Of a stretch of 64,000 bases of DNA, positions 31,664-51,341 are shown one piece after another. The notes under the pieces were generated by a model that worked only from the letters and a program-made list of their open reading frames with translations, ran no database searches and was not told the origin of the DNA. This stretch comes from a virus (Duplodnaviria; Caudoviricetes): the IMG/VR virus record IMGVR_UViG_3300044846_003573; one strand, written 5' to 3'. Numbering within the stretch: the stretch's first letter is position 1; every line of letters starts with the position of its first letter. The position numbers and the translations under genes were made by a program.

Positions 31664-32401
31664 TTATTCAGGATTAACTTGAAGTAGAGCAGTATATATT
31701 TTTTTGAACTTTTTCATTGACGCTCTAATTTCTTTTGTTGACATATTTGTCATCTCTCTGAGCGATAATAAAATGATATTTTTGTTAAATTTATTGTTAT
31801 CAGTTGCTGGAAAAATAGTCTCATAATTTTCCATAATTTCAACTAATGAAATACCCAATTTCATTTCACTTTCATTTAAATCATCAATTTCAATAGTTTC
31901 TTTAATATAGTCAATTAGTATCGGGATTAAATTAACTTCTTCAAGTGGCTCAACATCTAAATAATAAACCATTTCAGGAGAATTTTCTAAATCACCTGAA
32001 ATATCTTCATAGGAAATTTTTCGGTTTTGTTCTTTTTGGTCTTTTAAAATTTGACCCATTAGATAATTTTTACAAATTGTGCCAAAATATGAATACGCCT
32101 TTTTTTCTTTAGAAGGACTAAACTTTTCTATTTTAGTCATTAAAAAAGAGTGAGTATCGGTATGGATTTCAATAAAATCCATATCTTTTCTGTATAATTT
32201 ATATCTACGAATAATTGAAGAAATCATTTTATCCAAAGGATGTCTCAAGTATTCATTATAAATCTTATTTTTTTCTTCAAAAGTAGAAGCGGTCAGAAAC
32301 ATTCTGACTGCGTTCTCTTCTCTTATATCAAAGTAATTTTCACCGCTAGACTTTTTTTTCGTCGTAACGTTAATTTCTATTGAGCTCGCGCTTAATATCA
32401 T
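31664..32401 (-). CDS. gp55: phage sigma factor, T4 gp55-like (late transcription)
   Basis: Sigma region-2-like KIEKFSPSKEKKAYSYFGTICKNYL; N-terminal YFDIREENAV. Confidence 0.7.
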   Translation of the reverse strand: MILSASSIEINVTTKKKSSGENYFDIREENAVRMFLTASTFEEKNKIYNEYLRHPLDKMISSIIRRYKLYRKDMDFIEIHTDTHSFLMTKIEKFSPSKEKKAYSYFGTICKNYLMGQILKDQKEQNRKISYEDISGDLENSPEMVYYLDVEPLEEVNLIPILIDYIKETIEIDDLNESEMKLGISLVEIMENYETIFPATDNNKFNKNIILLSLREMTNMSTKEIRASMKKFKKIYTALLQVNPE

Positions 32402-33207
32402 TAAACGTTTTCAGTAACAAATTTTATGTTTCTGTCTTCACTAAAAAAATATTCTTTTTTAGCTGAAGATACCCAAAACTTAACCTCATCCTCCTCAAGT
32501 TTGGTTTCACCATTTTTGTATTCCCAAAAAATAGAACCCTCTCTTAAATTAGTATGTTTGTAACCAATTTTAGGTATAGTCATAATTTTCGCTGAATTGT
32601 ACGTTAAACGAAGTAACAATTCATAAACAAATGTTAATTTGATGTTTGGTTTAAATCCACCAAAGTCCTCAATTAAAGATTTTTTAAATACCATTCCTGA
32701 CGTTTGAAAATTTTGATATTGTAATAAAGTTTCATTTGTTAGATATCCCATTTCTTGTGAGAAATTAGCCGCAAATGTTGCTTCGTTTGTAAAACCTTGA
32801 AAAGTTAATTTATTATCTACCTCAACTACGATAGGTAGGAATGCGTCAACATCAGAATATGAATCTAAATATTTTTTTACATTTTTAAACCAAATTTTTG
32901 AGTATTCGTCATCAACTTCTAAAATACTAACCCATTTAGTTTCAGCCTTTGTAATTCCAAAATTAACTTGGTTTGAAAAATTTGGTTCACCATCGAATTC
33001 AAAAGTCGTGACTGTAAGATTTTGAAAATCGTAATTTTCCAAATAATTTGATAAATTTTTATCTTTACCGTGAACTATAATTAAGTTTTTTGGTAAGAAA
33101 TCTTGAGATAGTACAGACTCGATTGATTTTTTAAAAAAGTCTTCAAAATCTCTCATTACCATATTCTTAATAGGTAATATAACACTTAAATCTAAAATAT
33201 TTTCCAT
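32401..33207 (-). CDS. glycosyltransferase family 2 (likely start ATG 33207)
   Basis: LSVILPI, NFGITKAETKWVSILEVDD (GT-A DxD-like). Confidence 0.8.
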   Translation of the reverse strand: MENILDLSVILPIKNMVMRDFEDFFKKSIESVLSQDFLPKNLIIVHGKDKNLSNYLENYDFQNLTVTTFEFDGEPNFSNQVNFGITKAETKWVSILEVDDEYSKIWFKNVKKYLDSYSDVDAFLPIVVEVDNKLTFQGFTNEATFAANFSQEMGYLTNETLLQYQNFQTSGMVFKKSLIEDFGGFKPNIKLTFVYELLLRLTYNSAKIMTIPKIGYKHTNLREGSIFWEYKNGETKLEEDEVKFWVSSAKKEYFFSEDRNIKFVTENV

Positions 33208-33211
33208 AATA

Positions 33212-48854: not shown

Positions 48855-49435
48855 ATTCCTGTACTCCCAAAACCTTTACTACCTCTATCTTTATTTTCTA
48901 TTTTATCTACTTTTTTTAAATTAACCCATCTACCAGTAATACATCTTGCAACTACCGCTTGAGCGACTTTCATACCTTTTGTTATTACAAATTCATGGTT
49001 GTTTGTATTAAAAATAATGACTTTAATTTCACCAGTATAACCTTCATCTACAGTTCCTGGGGAGTTTAAAACCATTAACCCTTGATTGATTGCTAAACCA
49101 CTTTTTGACCTAACTTGTATCTCAAAGTCTTGGGGTAAATCAACTGAAATACCTGTCGGAACTAAAGCTCTACCAAACGCAGGTATTTTAACTTCTTCAT
49201 TGGCATATAAATCAAACCCACTATCTGATTCGTATGCGTAATTTAATTCTTTTTCATTTGTTGAAACAAAATTTATTGTAATTTTCCCATCTCCAATAAA
49301 TTGATTTGCATCCTCAAATTCATTAATATCAAACCCTAATTCATCATTTAATTCTTGTTCTTGTAATTGGCTAAAGTCATCAACCAATTTTTTTAATTCT
49401 TCTAATTCTCTTGCAAAATCAAATTTTTCACTCAT
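48851..49435 (-). CDS. dut: trimeric dUTPase with acidic N-terminal extension
   Basis: SGFDL, RSKSGLA, GTVDEGYTGEIKV, RGSKGFGSTG. Confidence 0.95.
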   Translation of the reverse strand: MSEKFDFARELEELKKLVDDFSQLQEQELNDELGFDINEFEDANQFIGDGKITINFVSTNEKELNYAYESDSGFDLYANEEVKIPAFGRALVPTGISVDLPQDFEIQVRSKSGLAINQGLMVLNSPGTVDEGYTGEIKVIIFNTNNHEFVITKGMKVAQAVVARCITGRWVNLKKVDKIENKDRGSKGFGSTGI

Positions 49436-50130
49436 AAGTTTGTTAATTTTATTAAAACTTTTATTAATACCTCAACATCTTTTTCACAATATTCTTGAAT
49501 TTCTTGGTATTTGTTTTCATTCCAAAATGCGTTATGAACTTTATTTCCTGTTACTTCCATATTTTTAGAAGTTCCAATACCAAGTGAAACACACATTAAT
49601 TCTAATGAACTTATCGCTCCAAATTGTCCATATTGCCAAATTTCTTTTGTATCAATTGCTTTAATCTCCCACGGTTTAGTGTCATAAGATGGAAGTATTG
49701 ATGATGGTAAAATACCATTAACTAACATTCTTTTTGCCAATACAGGGATATCAAAGTTTTTAAGATTATGTCCACAAAGGATAAAACCTAACTTATCAAC
49801 TCGATTTAATAATGTGTTAACATCTGTAAGTAACGCTTTTTCATCTGAGTTAAAAAAACTTTGTTTTTTAATATCACCTTTAGGGTCAAGAAATCCTACT
49901 GAAACACAAACAATCTTTGAAAACTCAGGAACTAAAGCCGCTCGATTAACAAAGATTTCGTCAATACTTTTTTCAGCGTCTTCAGGAAACCTTTTTTGAA
50001 ACCAATCTAAGTAATTAACAAACTGGAAATGAAGTTCAGGATAATCCTTTTTAAAATTTTCATAATTACTTGAAACCCCTACAGTTTCAATGTCAATAAA
50101 TAAGATTTTGTGTAATGGGTGCTTTATCAT
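49432..50130 (-). CDS. DEDD 3'-5' exonuclease related to the PolB exonuclease domain
   Basis: LFIDIETV, GHNLKNFDIP, YCEKDV. Confidence 0.88.
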   Translation of the reverse strand: MIKHPLHKILFIDIETVGVSSNYENFKKDYPELHFQFVNYLDWFQKRFPEDAEKSIDEIFVNRAALVPEFSKIVCVSVGFLDPKGDIKKQSFFNSDEKALLTDVNTLLNRVDKLGFILCGHNLKNFDIPVLAKRMLVNGILPSSILPSYDTKPWEIKAIDTKEIWQYGQFGAISSLELMCVSLGIGTSKNMEVTGNKVHNAFWNENKYQEIQEYCEKDVEVLIKVLIKLTNL

Positions 50131-51341
50131 ACGATTGATTTATAAAATTCTGCTCTTGTTTTTGTTACCACATCTAAACTATAGTGTTTAGATACATATT
50201 CATATAGTCTTTCACCCATATCAATTCTCATGTTTGGGTTCTGAACTAATTTCTTAATGTATTTTGCCCAATCACTATGATTTCTTACGTCATCAACTAA
50301 AAGAGCGTTTCCATCTGTAAACTCACCATTCTTTAATGAATGTTTTAAATCAATAGTATAAGGCCCATAGTTAGTCGCAATTAACGCTTTCTTATAAAAA
50401 CCTGCCTCAATAACTTTAAGTTGTGATTTTACTTTGTTAAACATATGTTGTTTAATCGGTGCCAAAGATATATCAAATTTAGAGTAATTACGAGCGTAAG
50501 ATGTTACAGGTTTTGTCCAAACTCTTCTATATGGTTGGTTTTGTTCATTTTCATAAGGTGTCTGAACAAATAACTCCAAGTGTTTTTTATACTCAGGTGT
50601 AACTATTGAATAGTTATTTGTAAAAATCTTTTCGTAATCATACCATACGGTTTCGTGTGGTTTAATTGGTCTTCTTGTTTGTTCACCTGTTGCCTGATTA
50701 ATCTCAGTCATCATACCACGTGTATCAAAACCACAAACAACAAACTGTAAATTTTTCTGAATATCAGAAAGTTTAGATACCATACCATCAAGTAACATCA
50801 AATCGTGTAAATGTGATGAACCACCTAACCACCCAACTCTTACCAAGTCAGATTCTTCAGTCGGCTCATTAAATTGAGCCTCTTTATGGTCAATCGCATT
50901 AGGGAAAATTACAACATTTTTATTATGTTTTTTTATTTCATCCGCAAATAACTCAGTAGTAGTTGTTACATATTTAGCAACTTTTAAATTTGCAACAATT
51001 TTTTCGTGTATTTTTTCTTGAACAATCAACTGATGAAGAGGATGTTCTTTTCCTGGTAACCAGTAATCATCTAAATCACATACAGTAATAATACCCATTG
51101 AATTTAAAATTGGTACTATTTGTACAGACTTATCCATATCTTGACCAAGAGAACGATGATAATGAATTATTTGGTAATCTTTAAAATAATTTATATTAGT
51201 TAAATCAGGATTAAATTCAATGTCGACATGAAAATCCTCCCCATATTTTGATTGTAAGTGAGTGTGTGGTGTGATTGACCTAAATCTCCCAACTCCAGTA
51301 GTGTCAGAAGGTATAACTAAAACTTTAATTTTTTCTTTCAT
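50127..51341 (-). CDS. GT4-like glycosyltransferase (likely start ATG 51341)
   Basis: TGVGRFR, DLDDYW, GWLGGSSH, DISLAP...KSQLKVIEAGF. Confidence 0.8.
   Translation of the reverse strand: MKEKIKVLVIPSDTTGVGRFRSITPHTHLQSKYGEDFHVDIEFNPDLTNINYFKDYQIIHYHRSLGQDMDKSVQIVPILNSMGIITVCDLDDYWLPGKEHPLHQLIVQEKIHEKIVANLKVAKYVTTTTELFADEIKKHNKNVVIFPNAIDHKEAQFNEPTEESDLVRVGWLGGSSHLHDLMLLDGMVSKLSDIQKNLQFVVCGFDTRGMMTEINQATGEQTRRPIKPHETVWYDYEKIFTNNYSIVTPEYKKHLELFVQTPYENEQNQPYRRVWTKPVTSYARNYSKFDISLAPIKQHMFNKVKSQLKVIEAGFYKKALIATNYGPYTIDLKHSLKNGEFTDGNALLVDDVRNHSDWAKYIKKLVQNPNMRIDMGERLYEYVSKHYSLDVVTKTRAEFYKSIV

What the first reader, a model, noticed from the sequence alone, without database searches (positions are those of the whole stretch)
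32401..51341. ~19-kb nucleotide-sugar and glycosyltransferase operon running into the late sigma gene
Seen: about ten GT-like genes (GT2, GT4, GT17-like, exostosin-like, fucosyltransferase-like) plus GMD, DegT-like aminotransferase, acyltransferase, methyltransferase, RmlC/RmlD-like enzymes, an SDR epimerase, a cupin and WecB. They are tightly coupled on one strand and end with the gp55-like sigma. No flippase, polymerase or undecaprenyl-phosphate initiating transferase is present. Established: LPS-like clusters occur in T4-like cyanophages, some mycobacteriophages glycosylate capsids, and giant viruses make their own glycans. Inference: a lipid-carrier-independent pathway building a methylated/acetylated deoxy- and amino-sugar glycan on cytoplasmic acceptors, most likely virion proteins.
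Basis: partly seen in the sequence, partly recalled or inferred. Interest (0 to 1): 0.72.

Follow-up and report, generated by a model that had tools for sequence, protein, structure and literature searches.

The report
Swappable sugar-building island in jumbo phage
A large uncultured lake phage of Bacteroidota carries a 20-kb operon of soluble sugar-making and sugar-linking enzymes whose 11-kb middle is exchanged gene by gene between related phages, so each phage probably makes its own glycan, most likely on its own particle proteins, though the target is unproven.

Summary
Window 51341..31664 (minus strand) is one tightly coupled run of 26 genes. It has 10 glycosyltransferase (GT) genes with 11 GT domains, plus GMD, WecB, a short DegT, an acetyltransferase, a methyltransferase, two cupins and two SDR enzymes. 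It ends in a sigma-factor-like gene.

New here: comparison with more than 290 related freshwater jumbo-phage contigs shows a fixed frame. The frame is GT-B, exonuclease, dUTPase and a two-domain GT on one side, and PhoH, two unknowns, GT-B, GT2 and sigma on the other. It surrounds a hypervariable island (35857-47220 here) with gene-precise borders. Forty-one fully sampled relatives plus this window hold 73 gene families there.

Five relatives, two of them complete, lack initiating transferases, Wzx, Wzy/ligase, ABC-2 permease, C5-methylase and dCMP hydroxymethylase. The operon also lacks the TATTTAT motif that precedes the structural genes.

Best reading (about 0.45): glycan is assembled in the cytoplasm without a lipid carrier, on virion proteins. 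Main rival (about 0.3): host surface glycan is remodelled through host carriers.

The scan already reported the same kind of island on another genome (e1-5336282). The lineage may be the published 'moraphages'.

The parts
51385..51410 (-). GC-rich hairpin plus T-run (terminator-like) between the upstream late-motif unit and the first GT gene
   Evidence: Read directly from the sequence. Close relatives keep a hairpin here. Distant ones instead have a conserved promoter-like TTTGAC..TATAYTTT element.
50127..51341 (-). Core GT-B glycosyltransferase, first gene of the operon (true start probably the ATG at 51341)
   Evidence: phrog_7162 4e-44; weak Glycos_transf_1. Found in 85 related loci at a median 66% identity. 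Homologues occur in Phapecoctavirus coliphages and a 735-kb megaphage.
49432..50130 (-). PolB-exo-like 3'-5' exonuclease; conserved frame gene, not a glycan enzyme
   Evidence: DNA_pol_B_exo2 1.7e-13; present in 88 loci.
48851..49435 (-). dUTPase with a ~60-aa N-terminal extension; conserved frame gene
   Evidence: dUTPase 2.4e-26; dut 1.1e-41.
47217..48854 (-). Core two-domain glycosyltransferase (GT-A Glyco_tranf_2_5 plus GT-B GT4). Its stop codon is the left border of the island.
   Evidence: At least 292 related contigs. Nearest Atlas clusters are all viral. Homology to L006 ends at 47217.
35857..47220 (-). Hypervariable glycan island with 15 genes: WecB, GT2, GT17, GT-A-like, RXYLT1-like, WbuC cupin, LbH acetyltransferase, short DegT, GMD, GT1-like, FUT8-like, SAM methyltransferase, C4-oxidising SDR, RmlC-like cupin, RmlD-like reductase
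   Evidence: Each of these genes except GMD (51 loci) is found in 0-15 of the 161 loci fetched; the frame genes are found in 60-106. Borders are gene-precise. There are 73 families in 42 islands.
42948..43826 (-). RXYLT1/exostosin-like GT; a single-gene insertion unique to this genome among the loci fetched
   Evidence: RXYLT1_C 4.5e-7. No tblastn hit in any of the 161 loci fetched. Absent from the otherwise collinear L016.
40418..42946 (-). Four-gene module: cupin, LbH acetyltransferase, short DegT, GMD. Candidate route to a GDP-linked acetamido-6-deoxyhexose.
   Evidence: The module recurs at 40-81% identity in L048/L058.
35857..38081 (-). Three-gene module: SDR (STCSVYG, YxxxK, no dehydratase Asp-Glu pair), RmlC-like cupin, RmlD-like reductase. 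The logic is C4 oxidation, C3/C5 epimerisation, C4 reduction.
   Evidence: The three genes co-occur in relatives.
35113..35853 (-). PhoH; first gene of the right frame. The island's right border lies just upstream of its start.
   Evidence: PhoH 4.5e-63. Homology of four relatives resumes at 35871-35863. 98-99% amino-acid identity where neighbouring genes are 60-80%.
34274..35129 (-). Two conserved frame ORFs of unknown function (208 and 87 aa)
   Evidence: No Pfam or PHROG hit; present in 103-104 loci.
33212..34270 (-). Core GT-B glycosyltransferase with no Pfam hit
   Evidence: AF2 pLDDT 87. Best solved match is AmGGT 8xsg, E 1.7e-14, TM 0.73-0.75. Nearest Atlas clusters are viral. Present in 102 loci.
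32401..33222 (-). Core GT2 glycosyltransferase; its stop overlaps the sigma gene start
   Evidence: Glycos_transf_2 5.3e-10; present in 95 loci. The only PDB sequence hit is GalT1 5hea, E 0.009.
31664..32401 (-). Sigma-factor-like protein with region-2 and region-4-like domains; last gene of the operon
   Evidence: BLASTP to T4 gp55 2e-4; hhalign E 0.0026. The top PDB profile hit is gp55 7d7c_F, E 0.21. VIA Z 8.5 to sigmaE region 2, and nearly all hits are sigma factors.
31643..31649 (-). TATTTAT promoter-like motif, 4 nt before the first baseplate-side gene
   Evidence: The motif is 20-fold enriched upstream of genes. It is present in 56 of 56 distinct homologous spacers in relatives.

Best explanation
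The region is a non-late operon of a ~300-kb freshwater jumbo phage of Bacteroidota. It encodes a self-contained cytoplasmic glycan factory.

Four phage-specific core glycosyltransferase genes are fixed in the lineage: GT-B 50127-51341, two-domain GT 47217-48854, GT-B 33212-34270 and GT2 32401-33222. I infer that they start and extend a glycan on a conserved acceptor.

The 11-kb island between them supplies activated sugars:
- GMD-derived 6-deoxy or acetamido sugar;
- an epimerised sugar from the SDR/cupin/reductase trio;
- ManNAc from WecB.

The island also supplies a methyltransferase and six further GTs that would decorate the glycan. Because the island is exchanged as single genes and modules between related phages, each phage would make its own glycan type.

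The acceptor is most likely the phage's own virion proteins, glycosylated in the cytoplasm without a lipid carrier. The enzymes would be made together with the sigma factor that then switches on the structural genes.

Shown: gene content, conservation pattern, island borders, absence of carrier and export genes, promoter-motif distribution. Inferred: the acceptor, the sugar identities, the timing, and the division of labour between core and island GTs.
For: 1. No Bac_transf, Glycos_transf_4, Wzx, Wzy_C/ligase or ABC-2 permease in five related genomes, two of them 100% complete. No membrane segments in any cluster ORF.
2. The core GTs are present in 85-102 of the loci fetched. At least 292 contigs encode the two-domain GT. 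The nearest Atlas clusters of the two core GTs searched (33212-34270 and 47217-48854) are all viral. This points to a conserved, phage-specific acceptor.
3. The best solved fold for the core GT-B 33212-34270 is AmGGT (8xsg, E 1.7e-14, TM 0.73-0.75). AmGGT is a homologue of the Actinobacillus Agt proteins, which add glucose to oligosaccharide chains linked to peptides (PMC12159676). Other early hits are soluble-acceptor GT4s, including the protein O-GlcNAc transferases SdgB and GtfA.
4. The only PDB sequence hit of the core GT2 is GalT1 (5hea), E 0.009, weak. From memory, GalT1 belongs to a serine-rich adhesin glycosylation pathway.
5. The motif [ST]-G-x-T is concentrated in a few proteins that appear to be virion proteins: 974 aa, 13 observed vs 2.3 expected; 498 aa, 8 vs 1.0; MCP, 4 vs 0.9. 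This is a possible sequon only.
6. The operon ends in the sigma-like gene, followed at once by the TATTTAT motif, which is conserved in 56 of 56 relatives. The enzymes would therefore be present when structural proteins appear.
7. Precedent: glycans on capsid and tail-tube subunits of mycobacteriophages (cited in PMC12619734).
Against: - No result here shows any sugar on any protein.
- GTs that act on undecaprenyl-linked intermediates are usually peripheral proteins without membrane helices. The phage could borrow the host's initiating transferase, flippase and ligase.
- Hypervariable, cassette-like gene content is also the hallmark of host O-antigen and capsule loci.
- The island gene pool (fucosyltransferases GT10/GT11, GT6, methyltransferases, UDP-glucose dehydrogenase, WecB) matches, from my memory of their composition, Bacteroidota surface glycans.
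- The operon does not carry the structural-gene promoter motif (0.29 vs 3.12 per 10 kb). From memory, mycobacteriophage GT genes sit in late operons.
- The structural matches are at 10-18% identity and do not fix an acceptor.
Confidence: 0.45

Rival explanations
1. Host envelope remodelling. The soluble phage GTs and nucleotide-sugar enzymes act on the host's own undecaprenyl-linked O-antigen, capsule or general O-glycan intermediates. Host flippase and ligase export the altered glycan. The infected cell surface changes, for example to stop further adsorption or loss of progeny on debris. Island variation follows host strain glycans.
For: - Cassette-like hypervariability with 73 families in 42 islands.
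- A gene pool typical of surface polysaccharide loci: GT10, GT11, GT6, GT25, FkbM and TylF methyltransferases, UDP-glucose dehydrogenase, APS kinase.
- The operon lacks the structural-gene motif, and in relatives it has a different promoter-like element upstream. This fits early or middle expression.
- The long-standing reading of 'LPS' clusters in T4-like cyanophages is similar (from memory).
Against: - No initiating, flipping, polymerising, ligating or ABC export gene in two complete and three near-complete relatives.
- The four core GTs are lineage-wide. The two searched in the Atlas are phage-specific rather than recent host copies.
- The same island occurs with very different neighbouring baseplate-side proteins: 88-98% vs 50% identity in L093. 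This loosens any tie to one host receptor.
Confidence: 0.3
2. DNA hypermodification. Some or all of the GTs attach sugars to modified bases of the phage genome to evade restriction, as in T-even phages or the MT/5mYOX/GT clusters.
For: - The first core GT lies beside the exonuclease and dUTPase genes.
- Phage GTs are known to add mono- to trisaccharides to 5hmC (bioRxiv 10.1101/2023.12.21.572611).
- A ~1-kDa thymidine adduct is reported in Yersinia phage YerA41 (PMC9023294 abstract).
Against: - Relatives carry a bona fide thymidylate synthase (314 bits to Pfam; 1.6e-76 to solved thymidylate synthases).
- No second ThyA-type hydroxymethylase was found, except a split hit in one genome. No ThyX and no C5-cytosine methylase.
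- Ten GT genes plus three or four sugar pathways far exceed any known DNA glycan.
Confidence: 0.06
3. A soluble product. The enzymes build a free cytoplasmic or released oligosaccharide or glycoside, for example a decoy or storage-type methylated polysaccharide, rather than decorating a protein, lipid or DNA.
For: - Many top structural matches of the core GT-B use small soluble acceptors or cytoplasmic polysaccharide: BshA, MshA, sucrose-phosphate synthase, methylmannose polysaccharide mannosyltransferase 7qsg.
- AmGGT itself prefers free oligosaccharides (PMC12159676).
Against: - I know of no precedent in phages.
- The hypervariability of the island is hard to explain for an internal metabolite.
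Confidence: 0.08

Closest known systems
Mycobacteriophage virion glycosylation (Che8, Corndog, Myrna; Freeman et al. 2023, as cited in PMC12619734)
   Same: Phage-encoded soluble GTs, sometimes with a methyltransferase. They are thought to act in the cytoplasm on the phage's own structural proteins.
   Different: Those cassettes have 2-4 genes and, from memory, lie in the late structural operon. Here there are 10 GT genes plus complete sugar pathways, under a different promoter class, with a fixed core and a swappable island. The acceptor is untested.
'LPS / cell-wall' gene clusters of T4-like cyanophages such as P-SSM2 (from memory)
   Same: Large clusters of GTs and nucleotide-sugar enzymes (GMD and others) in a T4-related myophage. 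They are variable between relatives, and their function is untested.
   Different: Different host phylum and phage lineage. Here the cluster has a defined conserved frame with four phage-specific core GTs and gene-precise island borders. Export genes were searched for genome-wide and not found.
Chlorovirus PBCV-1 autonomous capsid glycosylation (from memory; also named by earlier finding e1-5322585)
   Same: Virus-encoded GMD, multi-domain GTs, an exostosin-like GT and a methyltransferase. Glycan is built in the cytoplasm on the capsid protein at non-canonical sites.
   Different: Eukaryotic virus with no detectable orthology. Nothing here shows capsid glycosylation.
Actinobacillus NGT/Agt cytoplasmic protein glycosylation and AmGGT (PMC12159676; PDB 8xsg)
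   Same: The core GT-B 33212-34270 has AmGGT as its best solved structural match (TM 0.73-0.75). It is a soluble, lipid-independent glycan-extending enzyme.
   Different: Only 18% identity. No GT41/HMW1C-type initiating enzyme is found in relatives.
'Moraphages' (PMC12619734, Arch Virol 2025)
   Same: Freshwater jumbo phages of 200-307 kb, predicted to infect Flavobacteriia. They have T4-type structural genes, a core dUTPase, a sigma-factor orthogroup and four core GT orthogroups. This matches the four core GT genes found here.
   Different: Membership of this genome was not tested. In the passages I read, the paper lists the GTs but does not mention a swappable island, its borders or the lack of carrier genes.
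T4 gp55 late sigma factor (PDB 7d7c)
   Same: Region-2-like domain. gp55 is the best sequence-profile hit in the whole PDB. The gene sits directly before structural genes that carry a single short AT-rich promoter element.
   Different: The protein is 245 aa and has a C-terminal region-4-like helical domain, which from memory gp55 lacks. The motif is TATTTAT, not TATAAATA. gp33 and gp45 partners were not examined.

Membership tests
Wzx/Wzy- or ABC-dependent surface polysaccharide locus | Initiating phosphoglycosyl transferase (Bac_transf or WecA/MraY type) | tested here: not met
   No PF02397 or PF00953 match in five related genomes, two complete; the controls rang. No membrane protein in the window cluster.
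Wzx/Wzy- or ABC-dependent surface polysaccharide locus | Flippase, polymerase/ligase or ABC-2 exporter | tested here: not met
   No match for PF01943, PF04932 or PF01061.
Wzx/Wzy- or ABC-dependent surface polysaccharide locus | Nucleotide-sugar enzymes plus several GTs in one co-directional cluster | tested here: met
Phage virion-glycosylation cassette (mycobacteriophage type) | Phage-encoded soluble GTs | tested here: met
Phage virion-glycosylation cassette (mycobacteriophage type) | Expressed with the structural (late) genes | tested here: not met
   The structural-gene motif TATTTAT is absent from the coding-strand spacers of the operon. It is tenfold depleted across 41 relatives.
Phage virion-glycosylation cassette (mycobacteriophage type) | Glycan found on capsid or tail proteins | not testable with these tools
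   Needs virions and mass spectrometry. Only a candidate motif enrichment is available.
Phage DNA glycosylation (T-even or MT/5mYOX/GT clusters) | An enzyme that makes a hydroxymethylated base (dCMP/dUMP hydroxymethylase, or C5-methylase plus TET-like dioxygenase) | tested here: not met
   Only a true thymidylate synthase was found, and no C5-methylase. The TET search found nothing, but its control did not ring, so that part is inconclusive.
T4 gp55-type late sigma | Sigma region-2 fold with sequence likeness to gp55 | tested here: met
   BLASTP 2e-4; hhalign E 0.0026; gp55 is the top PDB profile hit at E 0.21; Z 8.5 and rmsd 2.8-3.8 over 91-98 residues to sigmaE region 2. Each line is weak alone; they agree.
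T4 gp55-type late sigma | No region 4; works through gp33 and the sliding clamp (from memory) | tested here: inconclusive
   The model has a second helical domain (residues 158-241). It aligns with region 4 of full-length ECF sigmas (AlgU, 159 residues aligned). Model confidence is moderate (pLDDT 67). Partners were not searched.
GDP-perosamine / Fdt-Qdt type amino-sugar pathway | Full-length PLP aminotransferase of the DegT family | tested here: not met
   The DegT-like protein is 202 aa. It keeps the Lys in SFQFQK but lacks the C-terminal domain. The short form is conserved at 197-214 aa in most relatives (one 244-aa and one truncated hit) and forms virus-only clusters. Its activity is unknown.

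The most novel reading that the evidence does not exclude
These phages wear a strain-specific sugar coat. Four phage-specific core transferases would start a glycan directly on virion proteins in the cytoplasm, possibly at the enriched [ST]-G-x-T sites, with no lipid carrier. A cassette-swapping island would then give each phage its own 'serotype' of fucosylated, methylated or amino-sugar glycan. This would be a bacterial-virus counterpart of chlorovirus autonomous glycosylation combined with O-antigen-like diversification. The coat might shield the particle, or serve as bait for the glycan-binding uptake systems of Bacteroidota hosts.
Probability: 0.3. Interest if true: 0.8.

Novelty: new variant of a known kind. 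Interest (0 to 1): 0.55.

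Why it matters
Phage glycan clusters are often annotated as 'LPS genes' without knowing what they do.

Here a very widespread freshwater phage lineage shows a clear architecture. A fixed set of phage-specific transferases frames a slot in which sugar-pathway and transferase genes are exchanged one at a time. 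None of the machinery needed to put a glycan on a lipid or export it is present.

If the glycan is on the virion, phage particles in lakes would carry diversifying 'serotypes'. That would bear on adsorption, grazing, stability and recognition, and would extend virion glycosylation well beyond mycobacteriophages.

The defined island borders and the candidate acceptor proteins make the question directly testable.

Tried and rejected
- The sigma-70 consensus scan of the cluster gave fewer sites than shuffles (122 vs 137.9), so it says nothing.
- Megablast of the region against cultured and GenBank phages found only one short 74% hit. tblastn with the two-domain GT and with the GT-B 33212-34270 found no match there.
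- PDB sequence searches with the two-domain GT and the first GT-B found nothing.
- Pfam and PHROGs gave nothing for the sigma-like protein, the 208-aa and 87-aa ORFs, or the GT-B 33212-34270.
- Foldseek on the sigma model gave no significant E-value; only the ranking and the VIA Z-scores were informative.
- The TET/JBP family search found nothing, but no control genome rang, so it is uninformative.
- No GT41/HMW1C-type initiating enzyme was found in relatives.
- I first recalled PDB 6vo6 as Mimivirus R141. The deposited name fits Campylobacter Cj1427 better, and I could not verify either: the full-text search was empty and the structure paper is not held.
- The Freeman 2023 paper is not held.
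- The first Atlas call failed.
- I considered the short DegT to be a pseudogene remnant. I rejected this because its length is conserved across relatives of 25-97% identity.
- I considered the whole 19 kb to be a single dedicated glycan operon. I rejected this because the exonuclease, dUTPase and PhoH belong to the conserved frame.
- G000 is only a 52%-complete fragment, so genome-wide absences were tested on relatives instead.

Full report
**What is there**

The window is the reverse strand of a 155,988-bp viral contig that CheckV rates 52% complete. GC is about 29%.

It encodes T4-type terminase, portal and major head protein. The nearest cultured relatives by capsid are Flavobacterium phage immuto and Microcystis phage Mel-JY01, at 42-43% identity.

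From 51341 down to 31664, every ORF is on the minus strand. Neighbouring genes overlap or are separated by at most 45 nt.

Pfam, NCBIfam, PHROGs, PDB searches and one structure prediction identify the following:
- ten GT genes with eleven GT domains;
- GMD, WecB, a hexapeptide acetyltransferase and a SAM methyltransferase;
- two cupins, WbuC-like and RmlC-like;
- an SDR with a GalE/Cj1427-like active-site pattern (STCSVYG, YxxxK, no dehydratase Asp-Glu pair);
- an RmlD-like reductase;
- a 202-aa DegT-like protein that keeps the PLP lysine.

It omits an exonuclease, dUTPase, PhoH and two unknown ORFs that lie inside the same run. No ORF has a membrane segment.

**The last gene**

The protein from 31664-32401 has no Pfam, PHROG or direct PDB hit. 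Several weak lines agree that it is sigma-like:
- It aligns with T4 gp55 by BLASTP (E 2e-4 over 41 residues) and by hhalign (E 0.0026 over 74 columns).
- A profile of its family ranks gp55 (7d7c_F) first among 177,635 PDB sequences, at E 0.21.
- In an AF2 model (pLDDT 67), almost all structural neighbours are sigma factors. Z is 8.5 at rmsd 2.8-3.8 over 91-98 residues to sigmaE region 2. Full-length ECF sigmas also align with a second, region-4-like domain.

I call it a sigma-like protein that resembles gp55 in region 2 only.

**Promoters**

TATTTAT is 20-fold enriched in upstream regions of the contig (47 of 87). It lies 4-20 nt before the start codons of the terminase, the portal, the baseplate-side run (31643-31649), the 498-aa and 974-aa proteins, and others.

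It is present in all 56 distinct spacers that follow the sigma gene in relatives. Its density is 3.12 per 10 kb downstream of sigma, but 0.29 per 10 kb inside the glycan operon of 41 relatives.

In this window, no coding-strand spacer of the operon carries it. A hairpin plus T-run precedes the first GT gene. More distant relatives have a different conserved promoter-like element there.

The operon is therefore not in the structural-gene class. I infer that it is expressed earlier, together with the sigma gene that closes it.

**Comparative anatomy**

At least 292 IMG/VR contigs encode the two-domain GT at 59-82% identity, and at least 590 encode the sigma-like protein. Complete relatives are 294-321 kb.

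tblastn of all cluster proteins against the 161 loci fetched separates a conserved frame from a variable middle:
- Left frame: GT-B, exonuclease, dUTPase, two-domain GT.
- Right frame: PhoH, 208-aa ORF, 87-aa ORF, GT-B, GT2, sigma.
- Frame genes occur in 60-106 loci. The fifteen genes from WecB to RmlD occur in 0-15 loci; GMD occurs in 51.

The borders are gene-precise:
- Homology to L006 stops at 47217, the stop codon of the two-domain GT.
- Homology to four relatives resumes at 35871-35863, just before PhoH.
- Against the nearly collinear L016, the window differs by exactly two single-gene indels: the RXYLT1-like GT and the methyltransferase.

Island genes can be 95-99% identical where the flanking two-domain GT is 82% and dUTPase 69%. 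Cassettes therefore move between lineages.

Island size is 1.4 to 9.6 kb in the 41 fully sampled relatives and over 10 kb in many more. The distance from the two-domain GT to sigma is 10 kb in one complete genome, 14.8 kb here and 22 kb in another.

The 42 islands hold 73 protein families. They include GT2, GT6, GT10, GT11, GT25 and GT47 enzymes, FkbM and TylF methyltransferases, a UDP-glucose dehydrogenase, a full-length DegT and an APS kinase.

**What is absent**

Five relatives (two 100% complete, three 82-89%) have no match to any of these, and the controls rang:
- Bac_transf;
- Glycos_transf_4;
- Wzx;
- Wzy_C/ligase;
- ABC-2 permease;
- GT41.

They do have a genuine thymidylate synthase. 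They have no ThyX and no C5-cytosine methylase.

Known DNA glycan clusters depend on a methylase and a TET-like dioxygenase and add one to three sugars (bioRxiv 10.1101/2023.12.21.572611). The DNA reading therefore has little support.

**Hints on the acceptor**

- The core GT-B 33212-34270 folds confidently (pLDDT 87). Its best solved match is AmGGT. This is a soluble enzyme homologous to the Agt proteins, which add glucose to oligosaccharide chains linked to peptides (PMC12159676).
- Later matches are mostly GT4 enzymes with soluble or protein acceptors.
- The nearest Atlas clusters of this core GT and of the two-domain GT are viral only.
- The motif [ST]-G-x-T, raised by earlier notes of this scan, is again found concentrated in a handful of proteins that appear to be virion proteins (79 observed vs 36 expected overall).

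None of this shows glycosylation.

**Verdict**

A carrier-independent cytoplasmic pathway acting on virion proteins is the best single reading (about 0.45). Remodelling of host surface glycans through host carriers remains a serious rival (about 0.3).

The main added value is the architecture: four phage-specific core GT genes framing a cassette-swapping island.

The same kind of island was already reported by this scan on another genome (e1-5336282). The lineage may be the 'moraphages' of PMC12619734. That paper lists four core GT orthogroups, but the passages I read do not describe an island. I found no paper describing the island in two full-text searches.

Noticed in passing
window 41399-42007 (-): A ~200-aa DegT-like protein. 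It keeps the PLP lysine (SFQFQK) but lacks the C-terminal domain and part of the large domain. Its length is conserved (mostly 197-214 aa) in relatives down to 25% identity. 86 of the top 100 Atlas hits are DegT-family clusters, and those listed at ~200 aa are 97-100% viral. This is a phage-specific miniature aminotransferase-like family of unknown activity.
   Followed up: partly
whole contig; e.g. window 13501-13507, 15480-15486, 31643-31649, 53985-53991: The motif (A/G)TATTTAT(A/C/T) lies only 4-20 nt before the start codons of structural genes. It is 20-fold enriched upstream of genes. This implies very short or absent leaders. A divergent pair sits at 53985-53991 (-) and 54010-54016 (+).
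   Followed up: partly
window 35113-35853 (-): PhoH is 98-99% identical in amino acids in relatives whose neighbouring genes are 60-80% identical. It marks the right border of the island. It may act as a homology arm for cassette exchange.
   Followed up: partly
window 21258-23108 (+): The T4-type major head protein is 616 aa. tblastn matches to relatives come in two pieces covering only 51-57% of it, so it carries a large inserted or diverged segment.
   Followed up: no
window 34503-35129 (-): A conserved 208-aa ORF begins MKIGIEVNGVL. By eye this looks like a HAD/5'-nucleotidase motif I with both aspartates replaced. There is no database hit.
   Followed up: no
window 48851-49435 (-): The dUTPase has a ~60-aa N-terminal extension. 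It is only 52-71% identical in relatives whose adjacent exonuclease is 94-98% identical, another sign of gene-by-gene mosaicism.
   Followed up: no
window 52001-52393 (-): A small 130-aa protein has a near-threshold WYL-domain hit (E 3.9e-4). It lies in the five-gene unit upstream of the glycan operon, which carries the structural-type promoter motif.
   Followed up: no
window 54018-56942 (+), 26077-27573 (-), and four proteins outside the window: [ST]-G-x-T occurs 13 times against 2.3 expected in the 974-aa protein and 8 against 1.0 in the 498-aa protein.
   Followed up: partly
L051:7151-8816, L049:6378-7532 and other related loci: The commonest island type in relatives (20-30 of 41) combines GMD with GT11 and GT10 fucosyltransferase-like genes, a GT2, an FkbM methyltransferase and DUF6165. 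A rarer island family is GT6. This is the enzyme set for fucosylated, blood-group-like glycans.
   Followed up: partly
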